64,000 bases of DNA from Escherichia coli (GTDB taxonomy: Bacteria; Pseudomonadota; Gammaproteobacteria; Enterobacterales; Enterobacteriaceae), in NCBI RefSeq assembly GCF_016903815.1, contig NZ_CP069973.1; one strand, given 5' to 3'. Below are positions 1 to 64,000 of the stretch, one piece after another. Below the pieces are notes generated by a model. That model ran no database searches. It saw nothing but the letters and a program-made list of their open reading frames with translations, and had not been told where the DNA came from. The translations under genes and the position numbers were made by a program. The stretch's first letter is position 1, and every line of letters starts with the position of its first letter.

Positions 1-309
1 CATGCGGGTCTGAACGGCGATATTCTGGTATGGAACCCGGTACTGGAAGATGCGTTTGAGCTTTCTTCCATGGGGATCCGCGTGGATGCCGATACGTTGA
101 AGCATCAGCTGGCGCTGACCGGTGATGAAGATCGTCTGCAGCTGGAGTGGCATCAGGCGCTGCTGCGCGGTGAAATGCCGCAGACCATCGGCGGCGGTAT
201 CGGCCAGTCTCGTTTGACCATGCTGCTGCTGCAACTGCCGCATATCGGCCAGGTTCAGTGTGGTGTATGGCCGGCAGCTGTTCGCGAGAGCGTCCCTTCT
301 CTGCTGTAA
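1..309 (+). CDS. asnA: aspartate-ammonia ligase, 3' fragment (5' end lies outside the window)
   Basis: Reading frame is open from position 1 and ends at TAA 307..309; the translated C-terminus ([23 protein letters not shown]...[15 protein letters not shown]) is recognised as AsnA; position convergent with viaA as in K-12. Confidence 0.9.
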
Positions 310-313
310 TTGT

Positions 314-1765
314 TTATCGCCGCCAGCGTCTGAGCAGGCGGCTTCGCATCCCGGTATCAAAGCGCCAGATATGATCGAAAATGCGCATGATGCCGGGTTT
401 GCCATGTGCCGACATCGCCACGGCATGAAAGCGATGCTGATGTACCCGCTGCAACTCTTTCACTTTGCTCGTCACGTCGTCAGGCAACCGCTGGGCGATA
501 AAATCAGAAATCACCACCGCATCGGCGTCAAACCACTCCCGACTTTGCAAGCGTTCCATAATGGCGCGAAAACAACTGGCCAGATCGGTGCCGCCACGAA
601 ACTGCTGACTTAAAAAGCGGATCGCTTGTTCGATGCCTTGTGGGCCTGAAAGCTCATAACGGACGATCTCGGTGGAAAATAGCATAATATAGCAGCGCCG
701 GTTTTCAGCGAGAGCAATGCGCATCAAGGCCAGGCAGAACGCTTTCGCACACTGTTCATTAAAGCCGCCCATTGAGCCGGAAGTATCCACACAGACAATA
801 AACGGTCCGCGCGGCTGTTCGTCGTAATCTTTATGTACCACCGGACGTTCGATCACTTTTTCTCGCCACGACTCACCGTGCAGGCGATAGGTGAGCAACT
901 GTTTTTCCACCAGCCGACGGTAAAACTCATACTCCAGTTCTGTTATCCCTAGTGTCGCCAGTTCTGGCGGCAGGAGACGTAAAATATCATCGCTTTGTTG
1001 CAGACCATCAACCTGCTCAGGAACCGTCGCCGGTTCGCGCACCATGGTGCGGAAGGTTTCCATCTGCGCATCGTTGCGCGGTATTGATTTGGCTTCCCGG
1101 GAACGCCCCAGCTGTTCTGCCAGGCGTTTCAGTTCCGGCTGTTCGTTAAGAAATTCACCGTATTTCACAATCAACTGATAGTCGCCACGTTTAAGCTGAC
1201 CGGCGCTCATATCCCACAGACGACCAGCTGCGGTATTGTTATCTGCGAGAATCGGTTCAAGTTGTCCGCTCAGCGTCATGCGTTCCTGAACTTCACTCAA
1301 CAGTTGTTCGCGTTCTTCTTCTAATAGCTGTTGATTTAACGTCGTTGCTTGCACGATCAGACTTAAACGCCAACGCTGGAGAAAAAGCGTGTGTAACGCT
1401 GAAGTGATCGTGCTGTTAGCATCAACCAACTGTCGGGCTTGTTCTGCCCATGGGGAATTCAGACGATGCAGTAAGTCCAGGATCTGTGGTAGCTGCACAA
1501 TAAACTGCGGCGTGGAGAGGAGCTGGCTTTGCTGATAGCACATCACCTCTTCGGTGAGTTCCGGCGGGACTCGGGCATCTTTCAGCCGACTGCGCAGCGC
1601 CTCACGCCAGCGGGGAACATCATCAGTGATTGCCGCCTTCAGTCGTGGGAATTTTTCAAAGAAGACTGCCAGCTGCGGTGAGGCCAGCAGCGCGATGATC
1701 ATCTCTTCGATCAATCCCTCTTCGCTGACGGCCAGCATCACATTAAGCGTATCCAGCGTTAGCAT
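314..1765 (-). CDS. viaA: VWA-domain protein ViaA
   Basis: 483-aa ORF; overlaps the ravA stop by 7 bp (operon ravA-viaA); C-terminal half carries a von Willebrand A-like segment ([13 protein letters not shown]). Confidence 0.93.
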
Positions 1766-3255
1766 TGTTGTGCCTGGCGAATCTGTGCGCCGACATCCTG
1801 TAGGCTGGCTTCAATGCGACCTAACCAGTCGCCAGGGATAAACAGACATTTTTGCTGTTCGCTGAATAAAGCGTGTTGCTTGCGCCAGTCGCTTTCAAGC
1901 TCTTCCAGTTGTTGTTTTATTTCACCTGGCAGACCTTCAGCCGATGAACCGGGAAGTGCCAACGTACTGCCTTGTAAACTTACATCGCGTACAACAAGAT
2001 GTTGGGCGCTATCCACTTCCAGATTCAATTTCTGAGCAAAGCCGATACCGTTCAGTTTGCCGCGAATTTCACCACCTTTACTCAGCCACTGTTCCAGCGC
2101 GTTACGCTCAAAGGAGATATGAACCACTTCCATATCATGCAGTTTTAACGGTTTTTGCAGCAGCAGAGTCAGAGTGGAAGCAGTAACGTTAACAGGGAGT
2201 TGATACTGCTGACGACGGCTGAAAATGCCGCCCAGACGAATTACCGTTAAGGCTGTTTTATCGCTTTGTTGCTGCTGTAGTTGCAGGTGACGTTGCACAA
2301 TCGCGCCCAGGCGGGTCAACATCCCTTGCTGTTGCCAGGCATGACCGGTCATCAATACATCAATTTGTTGTTGTATCAAATTCAGGCTTTGCGCGTCATA
2401 CCACAGGCAATCTTTCAGCAAAATGAGATCAACCGGGGCAACAGCACTGCGACCGTTAAAAAAGGCGCTGGCCTGCAATAAGCGGATCGCTTTTTTCCAG
2501 CGACGATCCGAGACATAAGGCGCATCCGGTAATTTATCCAGTTGCTGGCGCAGCATAAAAATCAGCTCAAATACATGATCGGGCAGCGTAATTTCACCAA
2601 TCTCTTTCTGCCAGCGTTCATATTCTTCATCTGTGACCTGCAAGGAGGCAGGAACCGGATTGTCGTTTTCATCCTGTTGACTGGTCAGCATGGAGCGGAA
2701 ATTCGCTTTATCCTGCACTTTATCTAACCACAGACGAATCAGCATGCGGTCATATAACGCTTCCAGACTGCTGTCTGCTTCCGGCAGCTCGTTGGAGGCC
2801 GCCACCAGCAGGCGCATCGGGATTTTTTCTACGTGTGCACCGTTGCGGAACTGGCGCTCGTTAATGGCGGTGAGCAAGGTATTAAGAATTGCCGGGCCCG
2901 CTTTCCAGATCTCATCCAGAAAGACGATTTCTGCTTCCGGCAGGTAACCGCTGGTTAAACGTTCATAGCGCCCTTCATCTTTTAGCGCCTGAATAGAAAG
3001 GGGACCAAAAACCTCTTCCGGCGTGGAGAAGCGGGTCATCAGATATTCAAACGCGCGGGCATTCTGAAAGGCGAATTTTAAGCGCCGGGCGATCAAACTT
3101 TTGGCAATGCCTGGCGGGCCAAGGAGGAACACACTTTCACCACTTAATGCCGCTAATAAACACAAGCGGATGGCGTGGCTACGTTCATAAAGCCCCTTTT
3201 CCAACGAACTGCTCAGGCGGGAAATTCTTTCCGCTAATAAATGAGGGTGAGCCAT
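1759..3255 (-). CDS. ravA: AAA+ MoxR-family ATPase RavA
   Basis: ORF 1759..3279; Walker A motif GPPGIAKS; start placed at the internal ATG (3253..3255) giving [14 protein letters not shown], the recognised RavA N-terminus, 498 aa. Confidence 0.92.
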
Positions 3256-3477
3256 AATGAAGTGGCGTCCTTTCGTCAAAAGTTCTGCGTAAATTGCGAG
3301 TATAGACGTTTCTTGCTGGTGGCTAAAATAGTCTCAAAGGGGGGGTATTTTTCTTTGAGCCAGGTTAATGTGGCCGCATTTAGGAGTACGATTTTGCCGT
3401 TAATCGTGCATACTGTGCGCTTTTTTGTGGGCCAAGGGACTAAGCACACATTTCATATTTCAACGAAAGACTAGTCT

Positions 3478-5346
3478 ATGAGCACTGATAATAAGCAATC
3501 ATTGCCCGCGATTACCCTCGCGGCGATTGGAGTTGTCTACGGCGATATTGGTACCAGCCCGTTATATACACTTCGTGAATGTTTGTCCGGCCAGTTTGGT
3601 TTTGGCGTTGAACGCGATGCCGTGTTTGGCTTTTTATCGCTGATCTTCTGGCTGCTAATCTTTGTGGTTTCCATTAAATATCTCACCTTCGTGATGCGGG
3701 CAGATAACGCCGGTGAAGGGGGGATCCTGACGTTGATGTCGCTTGCCGGGCGTAATACGTCGGCGCGAACCACATCAATGCTGGTGATTATGGGGCTAAT
3801 CGGCGGCAGCTTTTTCTATGGTGAAGTCGTCATAACACCCGCTATTTCGGTGATGTCAGCCATTGAAGGTCTGGAAATCGTCGCCCCGCAGCTGGATACC
3901 TGGATAGTTCCCCTCTCAATCATCGTTCTCACTTTACTATTTATGATTCAAAAACATGGCACGGCTATGGTCGGTAAGCTGTTTGCGCCGATCATGCTGA
4001 CCTGGTTTTTGATTCTGGCAGTACTGGGGTTACGTAGCATTATTGCTAACCCGGAAGTGCTGCATGCGCTGAATCCGATGTGGGCGGTGCATTTCTTCCT
4101 TGAATACAAAACGGTTTCTTTTATTGCATTAGGGGCAGTGGTGCTGTCGATTACGGGGGTCGAGGCGCTGTATGCTGATATGGGGCACTTTGGTAAGTTC
4201 CCTATTCGCCTGGCGTGGTTCACCGTCGTATTACCTTCCTTGACCCTTAATTACTTCGGTCAGGGAGCGTTGTTGTTAAAGAACCCGGAAGCGATTAAGA
4301 ACCCGTTCTTCCTGTTGGCACCGGACTGGGCGCTGATCCCGCTGCTGATCATCGCCGCACTGGCGACGGTAATTGCCTCGCAGGCGGTTATCTCTGGCGT
4401 CTTCTCATTGACGCGTCAGGCGGTACGTCTGGGATATTTGTCGCCGATGCGCATTATTCACACCTCCGAAATGGAGTCAGGGCAAATCTATATTCCGTTT
4501 GTGAACTGGATGCTCTATGTCGCGGTCGTGATTGTGATTGTCAGCTTTGAGCACTCCAGCAACCTGGCGGCGGCGTACGGGATTGCGGTGACCGGAACCA
4601 TGGTGCTGACGTCTATTCTCTCGACTACCGTGGCGCGTCAGAACTGGCACTGGAATAAGTATTTTGTTGCGCTGATCCTGATTGCTTTCCTTTGTGTCGA
4701 TATTCCATTGTTCACCGCTAACCTCGATAAACTGCTCTCCGGCGGCTGGTTGCCATTGAGCCTCGGTACGGTGATGTTTATCGTGATGACCACCTGGAAG
4801 AGCGAACGTTTCCGTTTGCTGCGGCGGATGCATGAACATGGTAACTCTCTGGAGGCGATGATTGCTTCGCTGGAGAAATCACCGCCCGTTCGCGTGCCCG
4901 GGACCGCGGTGTATATGTCGCGTGCAATCAACGTCATTCCCTTTGCGCTGATGCATAACCTTAAACATAACAAGGTATTGCATGAGCGGGTGATTCTGTT
5001 AACTCTGCGCACCGAAGACGCGCCTTATGTCCATAACGTCCGTCGGGTACAGATTGAACAACTGTCGCCCACGTTCTGGCGCGTGGTGGCAAGTTATGGT
5101 TGGCGAGAAACGCCAAACGTGGAAGAAGTATTCCACCGCTGCGGTCTGGAAGGATTAAGTTGCCGGATGATGGAAACCTCCTTCTTTATGTCGCATGAGT
5201 CGTTGATCCTCGGCAAACGCCCGTGGTATTTGCGTCTGCGCGGCAAGCTGTACTTGCTGCTGCAACGTAATGCGCTGCGTGCGCCGGATCAATTTGAAAT
5301 CCCACCAAACAGGGTTATCGAACTGGGTACTCAGGTTGAAATCTAA
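3478..5346 (+). CDS. kup: KUP-family potassium uptake transporter
   Basis: 622-aa ORF rich in hydrophobic transmembrane segments; N-terminal [13 protein letters not shown] motif typical of Kup/TrkD. Confidence 0.96.
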
Positions 5347-51699: not shown

Positions 51700-53085
51700 A
51701 TGGCAGATAACAAACCAGAGCTACAGCGTGGGCTGGAAGCTCGACATATCGAACTCATCGCCCTGGGGGGCACCATTGGCGTCGGCCTGTTTATGGGGGC
51801 CGCCAGTACCCTGAAATGGGCCGGGCCATCCGTATTGTTGGCCTATATCATCGCCGGGCTGTTCGTCTTTTTCATCATGCGTTCAATGGGCGAAATGTTA
51901 TTCCTCGAACCGGTTACCGGTTCGTTCGCCGTTTATGCGCATCGTTATATGAGCCCGTTCTTTGGCTATCTCACAGCCTGGTCTTACTGGTTTATGTGGA
52001 TGGCGGTGGGGATCTCAGAAATCACCGCCATTGGCGTTTATGTCCAGTTCTGGTTCCCGGAGATGGCGCAGTGGATACCCGCATTGATCGCGGTGGCGCT
52101 GGTGGCGTTGGCGAATCTGGCGGCGGTGCGGTTGTACGGCGAAATCGAGTTCTGGTTCGCGATGATCAAAGTCACCACGATTATCGTGATGATTGTCATT
52201 GGCCTGGGCGTGATTTTCTTTGGCTTTGGCAATGGCGGGCAGTCGATTGGTTTTAGCAATCTCACAGAGCATGGCGGTTTCTTTGCGGGGGGCTGGAAAG
52301 GGTTCCTGACCGCGCTGTGTATTGTGGTGGCGTCCTACCAGGGCGTGGAGCTGATTGGCATTACTGCCGGTGAAGCGAAGAATCCGCAGGTGACGCTGCG
52401 CAGTGCCGTAGGCAAGGTGCTGTGGCGAATCCTGATTTTCTACGTAGGCGCGATTTTCGTTATCGTCACCATCTTCCCGTGGAATGAAATAGGCAGCAAC
52501 GGCAGCCCGTTCGTACTGACTTTCGCCAAAATCGGCATTACCGCAGCGGCGGGCATTATCAACTTTGTGGTGCTGACGGCTGCGCTCTCTGGCTGTAACA
52601 GCGGCATGTACAGTTGCGGACGTATGCTCTACGCACTGGCGAAAAACCGTCAGTTACCGACGGCGATGGCGAAAGTTTCCCGTCACGGCGTACCGGTTGC
52701 GGGTGTGGCAGTATCTATTGCTATCCTGTTAATTGGCTCATGCCTGAACTACATCATTCCCAATCCGCAGCGTGTGTTTGTCTACGTCTACAGTGCCAGC
52801 GTGCTTCCGGGGATGGTGCCATGGTTTGTGATATTGATAAGCCAGCTGCGTTTTCGTCGTGCGCATAAAGCGGCGATTGCCAGCCATCCGTTCCGCTCAA
52901 TCCTGTTCCCGTGGGTCAACTACGTAACAATGGCATTCCTGATTTGCGTTTTGATCGGCATGTACTTTAATGAAGATACGCGTATGTCGCTGTTTGTCGG
53001 CATCATCTTTATGCTGGCGGTGACGGCGATTTATAAAATTTTTGGGCTTAATCGCCACGGTAAAGCGCATAAACTGGAGGAATAA
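51700..53085 (+). CDS. yifK: APC-family amino acid permease YifK
   Basis: 461-aa ORF with 12 predicted transmembrane segments. Confidence 0.92.
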
Positions 53086-53137
53086 GCAGCAAAACGCACA
53101 AACCGTAACCAAACGCGCAATTTATTTAAAAAGGGAC

Positions 53138-53166
53138 TAGACAGAGGGGTGGGAAGTCCGTATTAT
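53138..53166 (+). promoter_or_regulatory. promoter of the tRNA operon
   Basis: TAGACA (-35, 53138..53143), 17-bp spacer, TATTAT (-10, 53161..53166), GC-rich discriminator CCACCCCCGC; AT-rich UP-like tract upstream. Confidence 0.7.
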
Positions 53167-53187
53167 CCACCCCCGCAACGGCGCTAA

Positions 53188-53264
<77 letters not shown>

Positions 53265-53321
53265 TTTAGTCCCGGCGCTTGAGCTGCGGTGGTAGTAATA
53301 CCGCGTAACAAGATTTGTAGT

Positions 53322-53398
53322 GGTGGCTATAGCTCAGTTGGTAGAGCCCTGGATTGTGATTCCAGTTGTCGTGGGTTCGAATCCCATTAGCCACCCCA
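53322..53398 (+). tRNA. hisR: tRNA-His (with extra 5' G-1)
   Basis: GGTGGCTATAGCTCAGTTGGTAGAGCCCTGGATTGTGATTCCAGTTGTCGTGGGTTCGAATCCCATTAGCCACCCCA; anticodon GTG. Confidence 0.97.
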
Positions 53399-53418
53399 TT
53401 ATTAGAAGTTGTGACAAT

Positions 53419-53505
53419 GCGAAGGTGGCGGAATTGGTAGACGCGCTAGCTTCAGGTGTTAGTGTCCTTACGGACGTGGGGGTTCAAGTCCCCCCCCTCG
53501 CACCA
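53419..53505 (+). tRNA. leuT: tRNA-Leu (long variable arm)
   Basis: GCGAAGGTGGCGGAATTGGTAGACGCGCTAGCTTCAGGTGTTAGTGTCCTTACGGACGTGGGGGTTCAAGTCCCCCCCCTCGCACCA; anticodon CAG. Confidence 0.97.
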
Positions 53506-53547
53506 CGACTTTAAAGAATTGAACTAAAAATTCAAAAAGCAGTATTT

Positions 53548-53624
53548 CGGCGAGTAGCGCAGCTTGGTAGCGCAACTGGTTTGGGACCAGTGGGTCGGAG
53601 GTTCGAATCCTCTCTCGCCGACCA
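53548..53624 (+). tRNA. proM: tRNA-Pro
   Basis: CGGCGAGTAGCGCAGCTTGGTAGCGCAACTGGTTTGGGACCAGTGGGTCGGAGGTTCGAATCCTCTCTCGCCGACCA; anticodon TGG. Confidence 0.97.
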
Positions 53625-53630
53625 ATTTTG

Positions 53631-53656
53631 AACCCCGCTTCGGCGGGGTTTTTTGT
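53631..53656 (+). terminator. intrinsic terminator of the tRNA operon
   Basis: AACCCCGCTTCGGCGGGGTT hairpin followed by TTTTGTTTT. Confidence 0.85.
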
Positions 53657-53770
53657 TTTCTGTGCATTTCGTCACTTTCCCTTCGCAATAAACGCCCGTA
53701 ATAACTCATTGCGCCACGGTATGATTTCGCCCTTAACTTATTGAAGGATGACTTCAGGCAAGGAGCGACC

Positions 53771-55006
53771 ATGCTGCAACAGGTTCCAACGCGTGCTTTT
53801 CATGTGATGGCGAAACCGAGCGGTTCCGATTGTAATCTGAACTGTGACTACTGTTTTTATCTCGAAAAACAATCCCTTTACCGCGAAAAGCCAGTCACGC
53901 ATATGGACGATGACACGCTGGAAGCGTATGTCCGTCACTATATCGCTGCCAGCGAAACCCAAAACGAAGTGGCTTTTACCTGGCAGGGCGGCGAACCAAC
54001 GTTACTCGGGCTGGATTTTTACCGCCGAGCCGTGGCGCTACAGGCGAAATATGGTGCTGGCAGGAAGATAAGTAACAGCTTCCAGACTAACGGCGTTCTG
54101 CTTGATGACGAATGGTGTGCATTTCTGGCAGAAAATCATTTTCTTGTTGGGTTATCGCTGGATGGTCCGGCTGAGATCCATAATCAATATCGCGTGACCA
54201 AAGGCGGCAGACCAACGCATAAGCTGGTGATGCGTGCCCTGACGCTCCTGCAAAAACATCATGTCGACTATAACGTGCTGGTCTGCGTAAATCGCACCAG
54301 TGCGTTACAACCTTTGCAAATCTATGATTTTCTGTGTGATGCAGGCGTTGAGTTTATCCAGTTTATTCCTGTGGTCGAACGCCTGGCTGATGAAACGGCT
54401 GTTCATGCTGGACTTAAGCTACATGGTCCCGGCGATATTCAGGGCGAACTGACGGAATGGTCGGTACACCCCGAGGAGTTCGGTGAATTTTTGGTGGCGA
54501 TATTCGACCACTGGATCAAACGCGACGTCGGCAAGATTTTCGTGATGAATATCGAATGGGCGTTTGCCAATTTTGTCGGTGCGCCAGGAGCGGTTTGCCA
54601 TCATCAGCCAACCTGTGGGCGCTCGGTGATTGTTGAACACAACGGCGACGTTTACGCCTGCGATCACTATGTTTATCCGCAATATCGACTGGGGAATATG
54701 CTTCAGCAGACAATTGCAGAAATGGTAGATTCCCCGCAACAGCAGGTGTTTGGTGAAGATAAATTTAAGCAGTTACCGGCGCAGTGTCGCAGTTGTAATG
54801 TGTTAAAAGCGTGCTGGGGAGGCTGTCCGAAACACCGCTTTATGCTCGATGCCAGCGGCAAACCGGGACTGAATTATTTGTGTGCCGGGTATCAGCGTTA
54901 TTTCCGCCATCTACCGCCATATCTAAAAGCAATGGCTGATTTGCTGGCGCACGGTCGTCCGGCCAGCGACATTATGCAGGCGCATTTGATGGTGGTGAAT
55001 AAGTAA
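53771..55006 (+). CDS. aslB: anaerobic sulfatase-maturating enzyme homologue (radical SAM/SPASM)
   Basis: ORF 53741..55006; start at ATG 53771 giving MLQQVPTRAFHVMAKPSGSDCNLNCDYCFY (CxxxCxxC radical-SAM motif); 411 aa. Confidence 0.93.
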   Translation: MLQQVPTRAFHVMAKPSGSDCNLNCDYCFYLEKQSLYREKPVTHMDDDTLEAYVRHYIAASETQNEVAFTWQGGEPTLLGLDFYRRAVALQAKYGAGRKISNSFQTNGVLLDDEWCAFLAENHFLVGLSLDGPAEIHNQYRVTKGGRPTHKLVMRALTLLQKHHVDYNVLVCVNRTSALQPLQIYDFLCDAGVEFIQFIPVVERLADETAVHAGLKLHGPGDIQGELTEWSVHPEEFGEFLVAIFDHWIKRDVGKIFVMNIEWAFANFVGAPGAVCHHQPTCGRSVIVEHNGDVYACDHYVYPQYRLGNMLQQTIAEMVDSPQQQVFGEDKFKQLPAQCRSCNVLKACWGGCPKHRFMLDASGKPGLNYLCAGYQRYFRHLPPYLKAMADLLAHGRPASDIMQAHLMVVNK

Positions 55007-55041
55007 AAAAGCGGCCATTTTGTGGCCGCCTGCGGTTGATT

Positions 55042-55071
55042 GCCGGATAAGGCGTTCACGCCGCATCCGGC
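55042..55071. repeat. REP (repetitive extragenic palindromic) element
   Basis: GCCGGATAAGGCGTTCACGCCGCATCCGGC, the canonical E. coli REP palindromic unit, between convergent aslB and aslA. Confidence 0.85.
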
Positions 55072-55107
55072 AAGGTCAGTGTGGCCCGATGTAGCGATAG
55101 CGCCGGC

Positions 55108-56763
55108 TTAATCAGATTTAATCTGCGCGCGTGGTGGATATTTTTTCAGGATCTCCATATACGCGTGCATTTCGGTCTGTAGCGGTACACCCATTGGGAT
55201 ATGGCGCACGCCGATAGAGTCGCTTTCCTGCGGATCGGTGTACAGGTTAAACACCGACGATCCCGCCGTTTGCATTACTGTGCCGGTGAATCCACCCTGA
55301 TACCCGCTCTGGGTATACGCGTACGGTTGCTGGATCAGTACGTGATACTTGAACTCATCCATACGCACAGCAGCGAGTTTACCGTTGAGGAAGTAGTGCT
55401 CGGCCTTACGGTTAGACTGACCATTTGTTCCCAGGAAGAAAGATGTCTGGTCCACACCATCGATAAAGGTGGTTTTCGGTACTAAATTCGCTACTTTCGC
55501 CCCAGGATGCCCCGCCAGATCCAGTGCCGTAGGGAAGAGATCCGCCAGATCGACAATGCCGTCAGATTTACGCGGTTGGATCATGCCTTTCCAGTAAACG
55601 AAGGTTGGCACACGAACGCCGCCTTCCCATGTAGAACCTTTCGCACCGCGGAACGGCGTGCGACCGTGCGGCGGAACTTCGGCTTCCGGACCGTTATCAG
55701 AGGTGAACACAATCAGCGTGTTATCAAGCTGACCGTTTTTCTCCAGTGCTTTATACAGATTGGCGAAGATATCGTTCATCTCCACCATGCAGTCGCCGTA
55801 AGAGGTGCGCGCCGGAGAGCTACCCGCATATTTCGCATTTGGGTAGTTATCGAAGTGACAGCCGCGAGTGCCGTAGTAGAGGAAGAAAGGCTTATCGCTC
55901 TTCGCCATCTTGTCGAGGAACTTAACGCCATATTCCATCCAGCGTTGATCCAGGTCTTCCATATATTTCGGCGTAATGTCGGCAATGGCTTCCTGTTCAC
56001 CGCCGCGCACGGCATGAACGTCATCTTTGCTGAACGGCAGTTTTTGGATGTATTGAGAACGATCCGGGCTCAGGGCGACTTCCGGGTTGACGTGAACATC
56101 ACGCCATTCGGTATACATATCGGATACCGAGTTAAAGCCGCGGAAATCATCAAAGCCAACGTTCTGCGGCTGCGACTCTTTGTTTTCCCCCATATGCCAT
56201 TTCCCGATGGCCTGAGTGACGTAGCCCTGATCGTGCAGCAACTGCGGCAGAGTGGTTAACCCTTGCAGACCGCCCGGTTGCCCGTACATTGGCGGCATCA
56301 GAATGCCGTGGTGGATGGAGTATTGTCCGGTAAGAATCGTGGCGCGGGTTGGGGAAGAACTCGGTTGAGAATACGCCGAAGTTAAAATCAGCCCCTGGCT
56401 GGCAACGGCGTCGATATCTGGTGTAGGGTTACCCACCGCCACGCCGCCGCCGTTAAAGCCAACATCCATCCAGCCCACATCATCCAGCAAGAAAACAACC
56501 ACGTTCGGTTTCTTACCGGTTTTTTTCTCAAGTTCTGCCAGCTTCTGCTGGGTTTCTTTGTCTTGTGCAGGATGCTGCATCACCGGCATCATGTTGTCGG
56601 CAATAGTGGTCGCCGGTTTAACCAGATACTGGTTTGGGTGATCGTATCCGGCAAAGCCTTTGCGTGCGGTGGCGGTTGACGGGGTATCTGCTGCGTTGGC
56701 CATGAGTGGAAGAGCGGCGGCGACAGCCACAACAAGAAGTTTGGGTGAAAACGAAAATTCCAT
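55108..56763 (-). CDS. aslA: arylsulfatase-like protein
   Basis: 551-aa ORF with signal peptide and the sulfatase-family region near the N-terminus. Confidence 0.93.
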
Positions 56764-57187
56764 GCAAAATGCTCCGGTTTCATGTCGTCAAAATGTTGAC
56801 GTAATTAAGCATTGATAATTGAGATCCCTCTCCCTGACAGGATGATTGCATAAATAATAGTGATGAAAATAAATTATTTATTTATCCAGATAATGAATTG
56901 GAAAATCAGGAGAGCGTTTTCAATCCTACCTCTGGCGCAGGTGATATGTAAGGCGGTGATGTTATATCGCGTTGATTATTGATGCTGTTTTTAGTTTTAA
57001 CGGCAATTAATATATATGTTATTAATTGAATGACTTTTATTATTCATTATATATATGTGTAGAATCGTGCGCAGGAGAAATATTCACTCAGGAAGTTATT
57101 ACTCAGGAAGCAAAGAGGATTACAGAATTATCTCATAACAAGTGTTAAGGGATGTTATTTCCCGGTTCTCTGTGGCATAATAAACGA

Positions 57188-57394
57188 GTAGATGCTCATT
57201 CCATCTCTTATGTTCGCCTTAGAGCCTCATAAACTCCGGAATGACGCAGAGCCGTTTACGGTGCTTATCGTCCACTGACAGATGTCGCTTATGCCTCATC
57301 AGACACCATGGACACAACGTTGAGTGAAGCACCCACTTGTTGTCATACAGACCTGTTTTAACGCCTGCTCCGTAATAAGAGCAGGCGTTTTTTT
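57188..57394 (+). ncRNA. glmZ: GlmZ small regulatory RNA
   Basis: Sequence GTAGATGCTCATTCCATCTCTTATGTTCGCC...ends in hairpin ACGCCTGCTC...GAGCAGGCGT plus T-run; recognised as GlmZ; lies between aslA and hemY as in K-12. Confidence 0.9.
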
Positions 57395-57441
57395 ATGTAT
57401 CAGAAAGGTCCCGGAGGAGCTTGCCTCCGGGTGAGAAAGAA

Positions 57442-58638
57442 CTACTGTGGCGGGTTGTTCTGCAACGTTAACATCAAACCGTCGCGGCGCATCGCTGCAG
57501 CTTCTTCTGGTTTGTGCAGTCTGTCCAGCGCGTCGGCAAGCCATGCGTAATCGTAGGCGTCCGGACGTTGTTTCAGCGCTGCGCGGAAGGCGAGCGATGC
57601 TTCCTGCCATTCTCCGTGCTTCATCAGCGACTGACCCAGTGTGCTCCACAACAGCGGGCGATCGCCGACGTTTTTGATTTGCTGGCGCAGCACTTTTTCA
57701 AGCTGTTCCGGGTTATTGGTTTTCAGACGCGGGATCGGCAGCAGTAGGCGATCGTCATACTGGCGTTTCAGGCCGTCGATGATAATTTGCTGGGCAGTAT
57801 CATGATCGTCACATTCAATAAGATGTTCCGCCATTGCCACCTGCAACGCCACCTGATGACGCGTTTTCCGGCTTTGGTTTTTCCACCAGTTACGCAAACC
57901 TTCGCTACCGTTATCGGCACGCGCCTGATCCATCAGGCCAATCCATGCCTGTTGTTCCAGCATTGCACGATGTTCTTCATCACCAACATGGGCTTTCGCC
58001 ATTGATGGGATGATATCCAGCAGCGAACTCCATGCACCTGTGCGGATATACGCCTGTTCCGCCAGACGTAATACTTCCGGATGGCGTGGCGTAACTTCCA
58101 GCAGCTTATCCACGCCGTGGCGTGCAGCATGGTTTTCATTACGGGCCAGTTGCAGACGTACACGGGTGATTTCTACCGGAATGGTGTCATTGCCGGCCAG
58201 CTCCGCTGCGCGTTCCAGATGTTGGTTGGCGCGTGCTTCATCACCACGTTGTTGCGCGGCTTCGGCAGCCAGTAGATAGTTCACCACCGGTTGTTCAGCG
58301 TGATCGGCATTTTTCGCCATCAGCTTTTCAACTTGCTGATAATCGCCTTCCGCTAGTTTCAGCAGCGCCTGTTCGGTCTGCTTACGGGCACGGCGACGCT
58401 TACGTCCGACAAACCACCCACGGGTGTGTGCGCCTGTGCGGAAGATCCGCCGCAGTAGCCACTCAATGGCAAACAGCACTACCATCGCCAGAATCAAAAT
58501 AATCGCCAGGCCAGTGACGCTGGTTTCAATATTGTAGTTGTCGGTCTGAATCAATACGTAACCCTGATGACCGGCAATCATCGGGCCAACCACTATCCCC
58601 GCAATCAGCAAAACAAAGAGCAATAACACTTTTAGCAT
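57442..58638 (-). CDS. hemY: HemY (TPR-containing inner-membrane protein of the hem operon)
   Basis: 398-aa ORF with two N-terminal transmembrane segments; last gene of hemCDXY. Confidence 0.93.
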   Translation of the reverse strand: MLKVLLLFVLLIAGIVVGPMIAGHQGYVLIQTDNYNIETSVTGLAIILILAMVVLFAIEWLLRRIFRTGAHTRGWFVGRKRRRARKQTEQALLKLAEGDYQQVEKLMAKNADHAEQPVVNYLLAAEAAQQRGDEARANQHLERAAELAGNDTIPVEITRVRLQLARNENHAARHGVDKLLEVTPRHPEVLRLAEQAYIRTGAWSSLLDIIPSMAKAHVGDEEHRAMLEQQAWIGLMDQARADNGSEGLRNWWKNQSRKTRHQVALQVAMAEHLIECDDHDTAQQIIIDGLKRQYDDRLLLPIPRLKTNNPEQLEKVLRQQIKNVGDRPLLWSTLGQSLMKHGEWQEASLAFRAALKQRPDAYDYAWLADALDRLHKPEEAAAMRRDGLMLTLQNNPPQ

Positions 58639-58640
58639 GG

Positions 58641-59840
58641 TTATTCTCCTTGCGGCGCGGCTGCCGGAGTATCAGCTTGCGGTGCAGGTGCAGGTGCAGG
58701 TGCAGGTGCAGGTTTAGCTTCCGTTGTCCCCGCTGCCGGTTGTGCCAACAGGTTACGCACGCGAGTCTGCATCAGTTTTTCCAGCATCGCCTGGCTTTGC
58801 AGGGTTTCCGGGAGATCCATCGAGATATTTTGCTGGCTTAACTGGTCCACCTCGTTGAGGAACGCTTTGGTGGTGGCATCATCAGTATCGTAGTAAGCAC
58901 GTACCCAGGTGGAGACGTTCTCCAGCGCCTGGCGATAAGTCTCTTCCTGATGACGCGGTACGGCTTGTGCCGCGACCAGCAGGCGAGAGCGAATATTTTC
59001 GCGCAGATAGATATCCTGATTTGGCGCTAACAGCGGTACGGCGGTGTCATCACGACGGCGAATCGTAATGAAGTTGTCCATAAAGTTCTGCCAGCTTTTT
59101 TGTAGATTGATACGCCATTCGCTGATGGAACTGGAAAGCTCTTCACCGTCGGAATCCATCGGCGAACCATCGCTGTCATTATCGGCCAGACGCAGGTTAT
59201 CTACCTGATTTGAAAGCTGATTAAGCTTAAGGATGATGCCGTCATAATCCACCTGCGATACCGCAGAAAGGCTGGCGATATCATCGGTAATTGCCCGACG
59301 AACGGTAATCAGACTCGGGTCATTCATATCCGCCAGGCTGGCATCTGCACTTTTCAGCAACGCTGCAGCGGTCGTGACGTCTTGATCGCTCCACAGCTTC
59401 CGTCCTGCGAGTTTCACCAGAAAATCGGCCTGAGCCAGCAGCCAGGTTTTAGCATCGCTGCCGGAAATGGTGGCGACCTTTTGTTGGACTTCATCCAACT
59501 GTTTTGCCAGCGTTTCTTGCTGACGATTCGCCTGCTCAAGCTGTACAGCTTGTTGCTTGATAATGCCTTCCAGCTCAGCTTTTTGGCTCTCCTGGGCTTT
59601 TTGCAGTGCCGTCAGTTGATTAGCCAGGGCATCGCTGGTGGCAGTCTGATTGACGGCCTGTTGTTTACCCCAGCCATACAAACCGACGCCCGCCGCCAGA
59701 GCAATAGCAATAGCCACCGCGCTGAGAATCAATGCGGTATTGTTCTTACTCTTTTTTTCTGTTGCGACAGGTTGTGACGTGGTGTCCACGGCCTCCCTGG
59801 TCTCTTCAACCACGGCGGAGGTTTTTTCTTGTTCCGTCAT
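58641..59840 (-). CDS. hemX: HemX (putative uroporphyrinogen-III methyltransferase-like membrane protein)
   Basis: 399-aa ORF with an N-terminal transmembrane anchor, coiled-coil-like region and a C-terminal (Pro-Ala) repeat. Confidence 0.92.
58681..58713. repeat. tandem hexanucleotide repeat (GGTGCA)x5 inside the hemX 3' end
   Basis: GGTGCAGGTGCAGGTGCAGGTGCAGGTGCAGGT on the + strand encodes [10 protein letters not shown] in HemX on the - strand. Confidence 0.9.
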
Positions 59841-59861
59841 TATGGCTTCCTGTTATGAGAG

Positions 59862-60602
59862 TTATTGTAATGCCCGTAAAAGCGCATCGTTGTCAGCGTT
59901 ATCGGCGACCTTAATGTCTTGCCAGCCCAGTTCCCGGGCGAGTTTCGCCAAACGCTCACTGACGACCAATAGTCGACAGTGTAGTAACCAGTGCTCACGA
60001 TACCATTGTGGGATCAGCGACCAGAGTTGCTGCAACATTTCACCGCTGGTAACAACGACCGTCGTCACCTCGCGGGATTGCCAGCGCATCGCTTCTTCTG
60101 CACCATCGTAATGGATTGCGCATCGTTGATAACATTCACAAAAAGTGACCTCAGCACCGCGCGCCGTCAGGGTATCCCCAATTAGCTCACGACCGCCATT
60201 GCCACGTAATATCAGCGCACGTTTGCCCGCAATATTTTGTAATTCAGGTAATTGTAGCAAGACTTCGCTGATTTCCCGATCCTGCGGGTAGAGAATCTTC
60301 TGTCCGCTTACGGTATGTAGCGCCAGTGCGGTGGTGCGTCCAATGGCGAAATAATCAGGTAGTCGGGGCCATTTACGATCTTGCTGATGCAGCTGTGATT
60401 GGGCAAAAGCAACCGCGTGTTGCGAGAGGGCAAACAACAGATCCCTCTCCCCCAGCGCTGCAAGTTGATCAGCAAGTTGCGGTAATTGTCGACCCGGAGA
60501 AAACTCAATCAGCGGAAAATGCCAGGCCACCTGCCCCAGTGTGCGCAGACGGCTCACTAACTCTTCTCCAGCGGGAGACGGGCGGGTGACCAAGATACTC
60601 AT
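59862..60602 (-). CDS. hemD: uroporphyrinogen-III synthase
   Basis: 246-aa ORF; start overlaps the hemC stop by 4 bp. Confidence 0.94.
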
Positions 60603-61540
60603 GCCGGGGCGTCTCCGTTATAGACTTCAGCAAGGATCTCGCGCGCGCCGTTATTCAGTAGCTCTTCTGCCAGCGAAATCCCCATTTGTTCGGCATCTTG
60701 CGGCGCACCGCGGCGTTCACCGCGAATAATCTGCGAACCGTCCGGCGCGCCGACCAGCGCACGCAGCCAGATTTCGCCATCAATAAGCTCGGCGTAGCTA
60801 CCAATTGGTACCTGACATCCGCCTTCGAGACGGGTATTCATGGCGCGTTCTGCGGTAACGCGCAGTGCAGTTTCGTGGTGATTCAGCGCGGCAAGCAGCT
60901 CGCGAGTGCGTGTATCATCAAGGCGGCATTCAATGCCCACCGCACCTTGTCCTACCGCCGGAAGAGAAATCTCGGGTGGCAACGCGGCGCGAATGCGTGA
61001 CTCCAGACCTAAACGTTTTAGTCCGGCTACGGCAAGAATGATGGCATCGTATTCGCCGTTATCCAGTTTGCTCAGGCGAGTGCCGACGTTGCCGCGCAGG
61101 GAGCGGATAATCAGATCCGGGCGGCGTTCAGCCAGTTGGCACTGGCGACGTAAACTGGACGTCCCGACGATACTGCCTGCCGGTAACGCATCCAGACTGT
61201 CATAGTTATTGGACACAAAGGCATCGCGAGGATCTTCACGCTCACAAATAGTGACCAGTCCCAGACCTTGCGGGAATTCAACCGGCACATCTTTCATTGA
61301 ATGTACGGCGATATCGGCGCGATTTTCGAGGAGCGCGACTTCCAGCTCTTTTACAAATAAGCCTTTTCCGCCTACTTTCGCCAGCGGCGTATCAAGAATC
61401 ACATCGCCGCGCGTCACCATCGGTACCAGTTCAACGACCAGGCCCGGATGGCTCGCCATCAACTTGTCTTTGACATAGTGTGCCTGCCAGAGTGCAAGTG
61501 GGCTTTGGCGTGTGGCAATTCTTAAAACATTGTCTAACAT
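60599..61540 (-). CDS. hemC: porphobilinogen deaminase (hydroxymethylbilane synthase)
   Basis: ORF 60599..61561; start at the ATG giving [23 protein letters not shown] (313 aa). Confidence 0.95.
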
Positions 61541-61927
61541 GCTTGTTACCGTCATTATCATCCGTGGTCCATCCTAACATCCTTGCCAGAGCGATGTCAG
61601 TGTTGTGGTGAAACGTAGACGCCTGCGCAAACCGTAAAATGAGGTCTGGCAGTGGATCCTGACAGGAGTTTCACGCCGTCGTAATAAGGAATTTACAGAG
61701 AATAAACGGTGCTACACTTGTATGTAGCGCATCTTTCTTTACGGTCAATCAGCAAGGTGTTAAATTGATCACGTTTTAGACCATTTTTTCGTCGTGAAAC
61801 TAAAAAAACCAGGCGCGAAAAGTGGTAACGGTTACCTTTGACATACGAAATATCCCGAATGCCGCGTGTTACCGTTGATGTTGGCGGAATCACAGTCATG
61901 ACGGGTAGCAAATCAGGCGATACGTCT

Positions 61928-64000
61928 TGTACCTCTATATTGAGACTCTGAAACAGAGACTGGATGCCATAAATCAATTGCGTGTGGATCGCGCGCTTGC
62001 TGCTATGGGGCCTGCATTCCAACAGGTCTACAGTCTACTGCCGACATTGTTGCACTATCACCATCCGCTAATGCCGGGTTACCTTGATGGTAACGTTCCC
62101 AAAGGCATTTGCCTTTACACGCCTGATGAAACTCAACGCCACTACCTGAACGAGCTTGAACTGTATCGTGGAATGTCAGTACAGGATCCGCCGAAAGGTG
62201 AGCTTCCAATTACTGGTGTATACACCATGGGCAGCACCTCGTCCGTAGGGCAAAGTTGTTCCTCTGACCTGGATATCTGGGTCTGTCATCAATCCTGGCT
62301 TGATAGCGAAGAGCGCCAGTTACTACAACGTAAATGCAGCCTGCTGGAAAGCTGGGCCGCCTCGCTGGGCGTGGAAGTTAGCTTCTTCCTGATTGATGAA
62401 AATCGCTTCCGTCATAATGAAAGCGGCAGCCTGGGGGGCGAAGATTGTGGCTCCACCCAGCATATACTGCTGCTTGACGAATTTTACCGTACCGCCGTGC
62501 GTCTCGCTGGTAAGCGTATTCTGTGGAATATGGTGCCGTGCGACGAAGAAGAGCATTACGACGACTATGTGATGACGCTTTACGCGCAGGGCGTGCTGAC
62601 GCCAAATGAATGGCTGGATCTCGGTGGTTTAAGCTCACTTTCTGCTGAAGAGTACTTTGGTGCCAGCCTTTGGCAGCTCTACAAGAGTATTGATTCCCCA
62701 TACAAAGCGGTGCTGAAAACACTGCTGCTGGAAGCCTATTCCTGGGAATACCCGAACCCACGTCTGCTGGCGAAAGATATCAAACAGCGTTTGCACGACG
62801 GCGAGATTGTATCGTTTGGCCTCGACCCGTACTGCATGATGCTGGAGCGTGTTACTGAATACCTGACGGCGATTGAAGATTTCACCCGTCTGGATTTAGT
62901 GCGTCGCTGCTTCTATTTAAAAGTGTGCGAAAAGCTCAGCCGTGAACGCGCCTGCGTAGGCTGGCGTCGTGAAGTGCTAACCCAGTTAGTGAAAGAGTGG
63001 GAATGGGACGATGCTCGTCTGGCAATGCTCGATAACCGCGCTAACTGGAAGATTGATCAGGTGCGTGAGGCGCACAACGAGCTGCTCGATGCAATGATGC
63101 AGAGCTACCGTAATCTGATCCGCTTTGCGCGTCGCAATAACCTGAGCGTCTCCGCCAGTCCGCAGGATATCGGCGTGCTGACGCGTAAACTGTACGCCGC
63201 GTTTGAAGCATTGCCAGGTAAAGTGACGCTGGTAAACCCGCAGATTTCGCCCGATCTCTCGGAACCGAATCTGACCTTTATTTATGTGCCGCCGGGCCGG
63301 GCTAACCGTTCAGGTTGGTATCTGTATAACCGCGCGCCAAATATTGAGTCGATCATCAGCCATCAGCCGCTGGAATATAACCGTTACCTGAATAAACTGG
63401 TGGCGTGGGCATGGTTTAACGGCCTGCTGACCTCGCGTACCCGCTTGTATATTAAAGGCAACGGCATTGTCGATTTGCCTAAGTTGCAGGAGATGGTCGC
63501 CGATGTGTCACACCATTTCCCGCTGCGCCTGCCTGCACCGACGCCAAAAGCGCTCTACAGCCCGTGTGAAATTCGCCATCTGGCGATTATCGTTAACCTG
63601 GAATATGACCCGACAGCTGCGTTCCGCAATCAGGTGGTGCATTTCGATTTCCGTAAGCTGGATGTCTTCAGCTTTGGCGAGAATCAAAATTGCCTGGTAG
63701 GTAGCGTGGACCTGCTGTATCGCAACTCGTGGAACGAAGTGCGTACGCTGCACTTCAACGGCGAGCAGTCGATGATCGAAGCCCTGAAAACTATTCTCGG
63801 CAAAATGCATCAGGACGCCGCACCGCCAGATAGCGTGGAAGTCTTCTGCTACAGCCAGCATCTGCGCGGATTAATCCGTACTCGCGTGCAGCAACTGGTT
63901 TCTGAGTGCATTGAACTGCGTCTTTCCAGCACCCGCCAGGAAACCGGGCGCTTCAAGGCGCTGCGCGTTTCTGGTCAAACCTGGGGCTTATTCTTCGAGC
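61928..64000 (+). CDS. cyaA: adenylate cyclase, 5' portion (runs past the window end)
   Basis: TTG start at 61928 followed by [38 protein letters not shown], the recognised CyaA N-terminus; frame open to position 64000; absent from the ORF track because no stop codon falls in the window. Confidence 0.93.

What the first reader, a model, noticed from the sequence alone, without database searches (positions are those of the whole stretch)
58681..58713. In-frame (GGTGCA)5 microsatellite encoding a Pro-Ala repeat in HemX
A perfect tandem hexanucleotide repeat lies inside the hemX coding sequence near its 3' end. Such repeats are prone to slipped-strand gain or loss of units, which stays in frame and would produce length variants of the HemX C-terminal linker between strains.
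Basis: seen in the sequence. Interest (0 to 1): 0.25.

Follow-up and report, generated by a model that had tools for sequence, protein, structure and literature searches.

The report
Known variable Pro-Ala repeat in hemX
A perfect six-base repeat near the end of the E. coli hemX gene really does gain and lose units between strains, always in frame, but it is the already well-known CVN014 strain-typing marker and looks like an ordinary, tolerated length polymorphism.

Summary
Window 58681-58713 is a perfect (GGTGCA)5.5 array. On the minus strand it reads (CCT GCA)5 and encodes (Pro-Ala)5, residues 377-386 of the 399-aa HemX. It ends 37 nt before the hemX stop and 42 nt before the hemY start.

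The prediction also holds. Across 5,425 complete E. coli genomes the locus is always present, and its length differs only in multiples of 6. Three systematic samples gave pure arrays of 2 to 23 units, with Nei diversity about 0.9. One strain has lost the whole array in frame. Genomes with 2 kb of flank identical to the window carry 4, 5, 6 or 7 units, so the array changes faster than point substitutions accumulate.

The locus is not new. The published primers for CVN014, a marker of the generic E. coli MLVA typing scheme (Lindstedt 2007), match exactly on either side of the array, giving a 141-bp amplicon and allele 5. Papers call CVN014 the most variable locus of that assay.

The repeat lies in a poorly conserved Ala/Pro-rich C-terminal tail beyond the Pfam HemX domain. 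It is a tail, not an inter-domain linker. The best explanation is replication slippage producing near-neutral in-frame length variants. Interest is low.

The parts
58681..58713 (-). Perfect hexanucleotide array, (GGTGCA)5.5 on the + strand and (CCTGCA)5+CC on the coding strand. It encodes (Pro-Ala)5, HemX residues 377-386. This is the variable part of the locus.
   Evidence: Copy number 2-23 in other genomes.
58641..59840 (-). hemX coding sequence (399 aa including the repeat). The Pfam HemX domain covers residues 130-363, and residues 366-399 are a low-complexity Ala/Pro/Thr-rich tail.
   Evidence: ORF. Pfam PF04375 E=3.6e-108. RefSeq annotation under the match. Tail variability.
58596..58619 (+). 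Binding site of the published forward primer for MLVA locus CVN014 (TCCCCGCAATCAGCAAMACAAAGA), exact match. It lies in the first codons of hemY.
   Evidence: Primer sequence from PMC8143711 Table 1. Match.
58717..58736 (-). Binding site of the published reverse primer for CVN014 (GCAGCRGGGACAACGGAAGC), exact match. With the forward primer it gives a 141-bp amplicon, allele (141-111)/6 = 5.
   Evidence: Primer and size formula from PMC8143711. Match. In-silico amplicons.
58646..58651 (-). AAGGAG Shine-Dalgarno-like hexamer for hemY, inside the last hemX codons (Q-G-E) and 7 nt upstream of the hemY ATG. It lies downstream of the repeat, so its spacing to the start codon does not change with copy number.
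   Evidence: Sequence. The same CAA/CAG GGA GAA TAA nn ATG arrangement is found in E. coli, two Citrobacter species and Salmonella. Its function is inferred from the consensus, not tested.
57442..58638 (-). hemY coding sequence (398 aa; HemY_N plus TPR). It starts 2 nt after the hemX stop codon, 42 nt downstream of the repeat.
   Evidence: ORF. Pfam PF07219 E=2e-35.

Best explanation
This is an ordinary polymorphic coding microsatellite, the MLVA marker CVN014. During replication the nascent and template strands of the perfect (CCTGCA)n array misalign, which adds or removes whole 6-nt units. One unit is exactly two codons (Pro-Ala), so every change stays in frame. The only effect is to lengthen or shorten a poorly conserved, probably unstructured C-terminal tail of the inner-membrane protein HemX, beyond its conserved domain. 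The variants appear to be tolerated (near-neutral), so many alleles accumulate in the species. Shown here: the array, its reading frame, 6-nt-step length variation with pure arrays, variation among genomes with identical flanks, and identity with CVN014. Inferred: slippage as the mutational process, near-neutrality, and disorder and periplasmic location of the tail.
For: (1) All length differences among 5,425 genomes are multiples of 6.
(2) All eight alleles read in full are uninterrupted (GGTGCA)n with n = 2-23. Every Pro is CCT and every Ala is GCA, as expected from DNA-level unit duplication rather than selection on the protein.
(3) Both flanking SNP haplotypes (GCAATAAC..CAGCTTGC and GTAATAAC..CACCTTGC) carry wide allele ranges, 2-10 and 3-23.
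(4) Among genomes with flanks identical to the window, at least 59 have n=5 over 10 kb. Over 2 kb, 10 have n=6, 5 have n=7 and 1 has n=4. These are single-step neighbours of the main allele.
(5) Two O157:H7 genomes carry n=4 and n=9.
(6) hemX is annotated intact in every genome fetched, and NCTC11023 has lost the entire array in frame.
(7) The tail lies outside the Pfam domain. It is the least conserved part of the protein among 17 enterobacterial HemX sequences: between residues 369 and 391 only P385 is invariant.
(8) The CVN014 primers match exactly. The published CVN014 allele spectrum (2:13%, 5:13%, 6:20%, 9:17%, up to 12) resembles my genome sample (2:17%, 5:13%, 6:15%, 9:7%, up to 17-23).
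(9) Papers call CVN014 the most variable or most polymorphic locus of the assay and report alleles 2-11 within ST131.
Against: No mutation rate was measured, and no deep-read data were available, so ongoing slippage within a population is inferred from comparisons between genomes. Neutrality is untested. An identical (GCACCT)5 array at the orthologous site in Citrobacter gillenii, and alleles as long as 23 units, could mean the array is maintained by selection. Laboratory lineages show no change: all listed K-12-named strains have n=2, both B derivatives n=6, and both MRE162 substrains n=8. The rate is therefore not extreme, at least for short alleles. The AlphaFold model was too poor (mean pLDDT 44.8) to establish that the tail is disordered.
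Confidence: 0.88

Rival explanations
1. The repeat is an adaptive tuning knob. Tail length of HemX, a single-pass inner-membrane protein reported as a distant Mic60 homologue, would be under diversifying or lineage-specific selection. It might set the reach of the C-terminus across the periplasm or modulate an interaction. Slippage would supply the variants and selection would sort them.
For: The allele range is very wide (0-23 units) with high diversity. The same CCTGCA array is kept pure in a Citrobacter lineage, and a different 9-nt Ala-Ala-Pro array sits at the same place in C. sedlakii. HemX knock-down or deletion changes gentamicin and anaerobic fitness (PMC12282077), so the protein has a phenotype that could in principle be tuned.
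Against: The tail lies outside the conserved domain and is the least conserved segment. Salmonella has no repeat at all. Complete loss of the array occurs in a natural isolate with hemX otherwise intact. The allele spectrum is broad and roughly stepwise, as expected for a neutral VNTR. No phenotype has been linked to CVN014 alleles in the typing papers read.
Confidence: 0.07
2. The repeat acts at the RNA level. It lies 42 nt upstream of the hemY start codon, so copy number might change local mRNA structure (the unit contains the palindrome UGCA) and thereby hemY translation or hemX-hemY coupling.
For: hemY starts 2 nt after the hemX stop, and its AAGGAG hexamer lies within the last hemX codons. 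Long alleles can fold into an imperfect hairpin: for n=23 as single-stranded DNA, -36 kcal/mol with z = -3.1.
Against: For the window's allele (n=5) the fold is no better than shuffled sequence (z = -0.4). The array does not alter the spacing between the Shine-Dalgarno hexamer and the ATG. Ribosomes translating hemX would unwind the region. No expression data exist.
Confidence: 0.03
3. The length differences are sequencing or assembly artefacts in a low-complexity region, or they reflect only recombinational exchange of old alleles rather than mutation at the locus.
For: Short tandem repeats can be miscalled by some long-read assemblers. E. coli recombines, and different lineages do carry different flanking haplotypes.
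Against: All differences are exact multiples of 6 with pure arrays. Independent PCR fragment-length studies give a similar allele spectrum. Alleles n = 4-7 occur on 2 kb of identical flank, which import of diverged alleles does not explain.
Confidence: 0.02

Closest known systems
CVN014, a 6-bp VNTR locus of the generic E. coli MLVA scheme (GECM-7/GECM-10; Lindstedt et al. 2007, Lobersli et al. 2012, as cited in PMC8143711, PMC3877011, PMC5217547)
   Same: It is the same locus. Both published primers match exactly at 58596-58619 and 58717-58736, flanking the array. The unit is 6 bp, and the amplicon is 141 bp = 111-bp offset + 5 x 6. The published allele spectrum and the 'most variable locus' status agree with the genome survey.
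   Different: Nothing differs at the sequence level. None of the open-access papers that mention CVN014 also mentions hemX. The coding consequence, a Pro-Ala tail of HemX 42 nt upstream of hemY, is therefore not spelled out in the papers I could search. The original 2007 description is not held, so I could not check whether it names the gene. Allele numbering differs between papers: ST131 and ST10-complex alleles in PMC3407997 are one lower than the (size-111)/6 count.
Hexanucleotide VNTRs used for E. coli O157:H7 MLVA (TR, Vhec and O157-n loci)
   Same: They are 6-bp units that change by gain or loss of units. Serial-passage experiments measured roughly 4e-5 to 1e-4 mutations per locus for most of these loci, mostly single-unit steps (PMC3777172). 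This is the same kind of process inferred here.
   Different: They are different loci. A VNTR-19/TR7 primer that I recalled from memory has no match in the window, which is weak evidence that CVN014 is not that locus. No rate has been measured for CVN014 in the papers read.
Orthologous tail repeats in Citrobacter HemX
   Same: C. gillenii carries (GCA CCT)5 at the same position with the same codons, and close relatives have 3-5 units. C. sedlakii carries (GCA CCT GCC)3, with 394-, 397- and 400-aa variants.
   Different: These are other genera, and C. sedlakii has a different unit (9 nt, Ala-Pro-Ala). Salmonella enterica has only a single CCT GCC at this site, with no array.
Phase-variable contingency loci (simple-sequence repeats that switch genes on and off)
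   Same: A perfect short tandem repeat inside a gene, mutable by slippage.
   Different: The unit length is a multiple of three, so there is no frameshift and no on/off switch. All alleles seen leave hemX intact. The array is not in a promoter, nor between a ribosome-binding site and a start codon.

Membership tests
MLVA locus CVN014 | Both published CVN014 primers anneal on opposite strands flanking a tandem array | tested here: met
   Primers from PMC8143711 Table 1. Exact matches at 58596-58619 (+) and 58717-58736 (-), each unique in the window.
MLVA locus CVN014 | 6-bp repeat unit and a 111-bp non-repeat offset in the amplicon | tested here: met
   The formula (PS-111)/6 comes from PMC8143711. 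In-silico amplicons of 123-249 bp give whole numbers equal to the counted (GGTGCA)n in all 9 sequences where both primers match.
MLVA locus CVN014 | Copy number polymorphic among E. coli strains, with high diversity | tested here: met
   n ranges from 2 to 23, plus one deletion allele. Nei diversity is about 0.90 from a 60-row systematic sample of 5,425 genomes and 0.89 from a 40-row sample. Published values: 0.83 in non-O157 STEC and 'largest variation'.
Microsatellite/VNTR evolving by replication slippage | Length changes in whole units, arrays stay pure, and alleles differ among otherwise identical haplotypes | tested here: met
Microsatellite/VNTR evolving by replication slippage | Elevated per-generation rate of unit gain or loss, and within-population heterogeneity | not testable with these tools
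   This needs mutation-accumulation lines or deep amplicon reads. Only comparisons between genomes were possible.
Phase-variable contingency locus | Repeat changes shift the reading frame or the promoter/RBS spacing, switching expression on and off | tested here: not met
   The unit is 6 nt (two codons). hemX is intact at n = 2-23 and even with the array deleted. The array lies upstream of the hemY Shine-Dalgarno hexamer and start codon and does not change their spacing.
Pro/Ala-rich inter-domain linker (as in OmpA hinge or E2 lipoyl linkers; recalled from general knowledge) | Connects two folded domains | tested here: not met
   Only 13 residues follow the (PA)5 run ([13 protein letters not shown]). 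The Pfam domain ends at residue 363. The last predicted helix ends at residue 365, in a low-confidence model.
HemX family (Pfam PF04375) | Significant match to the family profile above the gathering threshold | tested here: met
   361 bits against a 25.9-bit cut-off, residues 130-363. The gene lies between hemD and hemY, as in RefSeq annotation.

The most novel reading that the evidence does not exclude
The length of HemX's Pro-Ala tail may not be neutral. In a protein reported to be a distant, mitofilin-less relative of Mic60, the slippage-prone array would act as a heritable, reversible tuning knob. It could tune the reach or interactions of the HemX C-terminus in the periplasm, or hemY expression. 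That would explain why a pure array is maintained at the same site in E. coli and in some Citrobacter.
Probability: 0.06. Interest if true: 0.45.

Novelty: already known. Interest (0 to 1): 0.1.

Why it matters
In practice the locus already matters as a typing marker. CVN014 is the most discriminating locus of the generic E. coli MLVA, and this window carries allele 5. Its flanks match those of genomes that appear to belong to the ST405 / O102:H6 lineage. This work adds a plain statement of what the marker is in gene terms: an in-frame Pro-Ala dipeptide repeat in the non-conserved C-terminal tail of HemX, just upstream of hemY. It also adds a survey of 5,425 complete genomes showing 2-23 units, one complete in-frame loss, and changes on identical flanks. 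Biologically it is an example of a tolerated coding microsatellite, not a regulatory switch. It would become interesting only if tail length turned out to affect HemX or HemY function.

Tried and rejected
1. I tested whether the locus is also one of the O157:H7 MLVA loci (TR7 / VNTR-19). A primer recalled from memory has no match in the window with up to 3 mismatches. The recollection is unverified, so this is weak, and I make no claim from it.
2. Full-text searches for hemX plus VNTR or tandem repeat found nothing relevant. The one hit was a hemX point mutation in Salmonella. A search for GGTGCA plus MLVA was uninformative.
3. The original CVN014 description (Lindstedt 2007) is not held, so I could not see whether it names hemX.
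4. I looked for hairpin formation by the TGCA-containing unit. It is not distinguishable from shuffles at n=5 on either strand (z about -0.4) and is significant only for n=23. I rejected it as an explanation for this allele and keep it only as a possible contributor in long alleles.
5. AlphaFold2 on a 17-sequence alignment gave a poor model (mean pLDDT 44.8, pTM 0.32). It shows the tail as coil with the lowest confidence but cannot establish disorder. I therefore did not run a fold search.
6. No solved structure shares detectable sequence similarity with HemX.
7. The short 141-nt query truncated alignments for alleles that differ by more than one unit, so it gave only allele classes. I replaced it with an engineered 32-unit query whose match span reads out n directly.
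8. I rejected a phase-variation (on/off) reading because the unit is two codons and all alleles are in frame.

Full report
**Observation**

The window holds a perfect tandem array at 58681-58713: period 6, 5.5 copies, 100% matches, consensus GGTGCA. None of 100 dinucleotide-preserving shuffles of the window contains the 33-mer, even with three mismatches allowed. It is the only period-6 array with TRF score >=40 in the 64 kb.

The array lies in a minus-strand ORF, 58641..59840, of 399 aa. That ORF matches Pfam PF04375 (HemX) at E = 3.6e-108 over residues 130-363 and is annotated hemX in RefSeq genomes. On the coding strand the array reads AAA (CCT GCA)5 CCG CAA, which is K-(Pro-Ala)5-P-Q. The (PA)5 run occupies residues 377-386.

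hemY (57442..58638, minus strand) starts 2 nt after the hemX stop. An AAGGAG hexamer for hemY sits in the last hemX codons, at 58646-58651. The repeat lies 42 nt upstream of the hemY ATG.

**Variation between E. coli genomes**

A 281-nt query around the array matched 5,425 of 5,426 complete E. coli genomes. The length of the matched stretch differed only in steps of 6, from 263 nt (K-12) to 389 nt.

I fetched eight genomes and counted units between the flanks. All arrays are pure (GGTGCA)n:

| Strain | Units (n) |
|---|---|
| K-12 MG1655 | 2 |
| FAM21845 | 3 |
| Window | 5 |
| O157:H7 Balcarce_14.2 | 9 |
| MSB1_7C | 10 |
| SW07099 | 12 |
| 05-3629 | 21 |
| 2017.20.01CC | 23 |

hemX is annotated intact in every one of these, at 393 to 435 aa. 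Strain NCTC11023 has an in-frame deletion that removes the whole array plus 15 adjacent bases, leaving a 384-aa HemX.

For a frequency estimate I built a query of window flanks plus 32 units, so that the match span equals 300 + 6n. I then listed 60 genomes taken at even steps down the ranking:

| n | Genomes in sample |
|---|---|
| 2 | 10 |
| 3 | 3 |
| 4 | 4 |
| 5 | 8 |
| 6 | 9 |
| 7 | 6 |
| 8 | 5 |
| 9 | 4 |
| 10 | 3 |
| 11 | 3 |
| 12 | 1 |
| 13 | 1 |
| 15 | 1 |
| 17 | 1 |
| Array deleted | 1 |

This gives a Nei diversity of about 0.90. Two other systematic samples agree.

**Variation on identical flanks**

The window's 10-kb neighbourhood is 100% identical, with n=5, in at least 59 genomes. 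These include an O102:H6 strain and a strain named '405', so the window probably comes from the ST405 lineage (the lineage assignment is an inference from strain names).

I then searched with window flanks of 1 kb each side joined to engineered arrays of 6 or 4 units.
- Ten genomes matched the 6-unit construct at 100%.
- Five more differed from it only by one extra unit (n=7).
- One genome matched the 4-unit construct exactly.

So the array has changed several times while 2 kb of flank accumulated no substitution. Both local SNP haplotypes carry wide allele ranges. Two O157:H7 genomes carry 4 and 9 units.

By contrast, laboratory lineages are uniform in the rows listed: K-12-named strains all have n=2, two B derivatives n=6, and two MRE162 substrains n=8.

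**What it is**

The published primers for CVN014, a locus of the generic E. coli MLVA typing scheme, are TCCCCGCAATCAGCAAMACAAAGA and GCAGCRGGGACAACGGAAGC (PMC8143711 Table 1). They match the window exactly and uniquely at 58596-58619 (+) and 58717-58736 (-), on either side of the array.

The in-silico amplicon is 141 bp. The published formula (size - 111)/6 gives allele 5. The same formula returns the counted n for every fetched genome in which both primers match.

The typing literature describes CVN014 as follows:
- It is 'the most polymorphic locus', with Nei index 0.83 and a range of 4-15 repeats in non-O157 STEC (PMC3519732).
- It shows 'the largest variation', with an allele spectrum of 2-12 repeats that resembles mine (PMC5217547 Table 3).
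- It takes alleles 2-11 within ST131 (PMC3407997).

**Where it sits in the protein**

The Pfam domain ends at residue 363. In an alignment of 17 enterobacterial HemX proteins, almost every column up to residue 368 is invariant. Between residues 369 and 391 only P385 is invariant. The last residues, P-x-x-P-Q-G-E, are conserved again, and these codons overlap the hemY ribosome-binding region.

The tail is Ala/Pro/Thr-rich in all genera, but its content differs:
- Salmonella has no Pro-Ala run.
- C. koseri has two units.
- C. gillenii has the same (GCA CCT)5 array, with relatives at 3-5 units.
- C. sedlakii has a 9-nt (GCA CCT GCC)3 array, with 394-, 397- and 400-aa variants.

Only 13 residues follow the E. 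coli (PA)5 run, so it is a C-terminal tail and not a linker between domains.

An AlphaFold2 model was poor overall (mean pLDDT 44.8). It places the last helix at residues 343-365 and shows 366-399 as coil with the lowest confidence. That is compatible with disorder but does not prove it. No solved structure shares detectable sequence similarity.

From the literature, HemX is described as a distant Mic60 homologue that lacks the mitofilin domain (bioRxiv 10.1101/2022.06.14.496148). A Keio hemX deletion is viable and less sensitive to gentamicin (PMC12282077). The RefSeq product name 'uroporphyrinogen-III C-methyltransferase' is only 'putative' in Pfam's own description.

**Mechanism**

The best-supported mechanism is replication slippage in a perfect hexanucleotide array. 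Each event adds or removes a Pro-Ala dipeptide in a tail that tolerates any length from 0 to 23 units.

The supporting evidence is strict 6-nt steps, pure arrays with a single codon pair (CCT GCA), single-step neighbours on identical flanks, and intact hemX in every allele.

The unit contains the palindrome TGCA, so long arrays can fold into imperfect hairpins. For n=23 the fold is -36 kcal/mol with z = -3.1. At n=5 the fold is no better than shuffled sequence.

The locus is not a phase-variation switch. The unit is two codons, and the array does not alter the hemY ribosome-binding spacing. An adaptive role for tail length, or an RNA-level effect on hemY, is not excluded, but nothing found here supports either.

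**Verdict**

The feature is already known as CVN014, and interest is low. The marginal additions are the explicit gene-level description of the marker, a survey of 5,425 complete genomes, the natural array-deletion allele, and the parallel arrays in Citrobacter.

Noticed in passing
window 57188-57394 (+): The small RNA GlmZ (Rfam RF00083, 218 bits, full length) lies in the aslA-hemY intergenic region, on the strand opposite to hemY. TRF also reports a 15-16-nt near-duplicate (TATTCACTCAGGAAGT x1.9) at 57081-57110, just upstream of it.
   Followed up: partly
L003 (E. coli NCTC11023, NZ_LS483297.1 4601050-4601885), corresponding to window ~58666-58710: A natural in-frame deletion, 45 nt relative to the window and 27 nt relative to K-12, removes the whole Pro-Ala array plus the adjacent GGAGTATCAGCTTGC. 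HemX is left at 384 aa and annotated intact. The CVN014 reverse-primer site carries a mismatch.
   Followed up: yes
L009 (Citrobacter gillenii CP151088.1) and L010 (C. sedlakii contig), 3' end of hemX: Parallel microsatellites occur at the orthologous site. C. gillenii has (GCA CCT)5, and close relatives encode 3-5 units. C. sedlakii has (GCA CCT GCC)3, with 394-, 397- and 400-aa protein variants. Salmonella (L011) has no array.
   Followed up: partly
protein P0001 (485 aa, ENA metagenome assembly): This HemX variant is 99% identical to the query. It has an internal duplication of about 86 aa in the C-terminal part of the HemX domain and an interrupted array (PAPAPAPTPAPAPAP). It could be a real tandem duplication or an assembly artefact.
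   Followed up: no
hit H101, NZ_CM192137.1 (strain Ec-U14-1) 600856-611568, matching window 52700-62700: The 10,001-nt window segment matches at 100% but in two pieces spanning 10,713 nt. This strain therefore carries an insertion of about 712 nt somewhere in the aslB-aslA-hemYXDC region.
   Followed up: no
E. coli genome searches: One of the 5,426 genomes has no match to the hemX-hemY junction. One extra copy of the region lies on a record classed as a plasmid, and a few genomes have two places.
   Followed up: no
window 58641-59840 (-): RefSeq names the hemX product 'uroporphyrinogen-III C-methyltransferase'. Pfam calls that function only 'putative', and a preprint treats HemX as a distant Mic60 homologue without the mitofilin domain. 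The product name is probably a legacy label rather than a tested function.
   Followed up: partly
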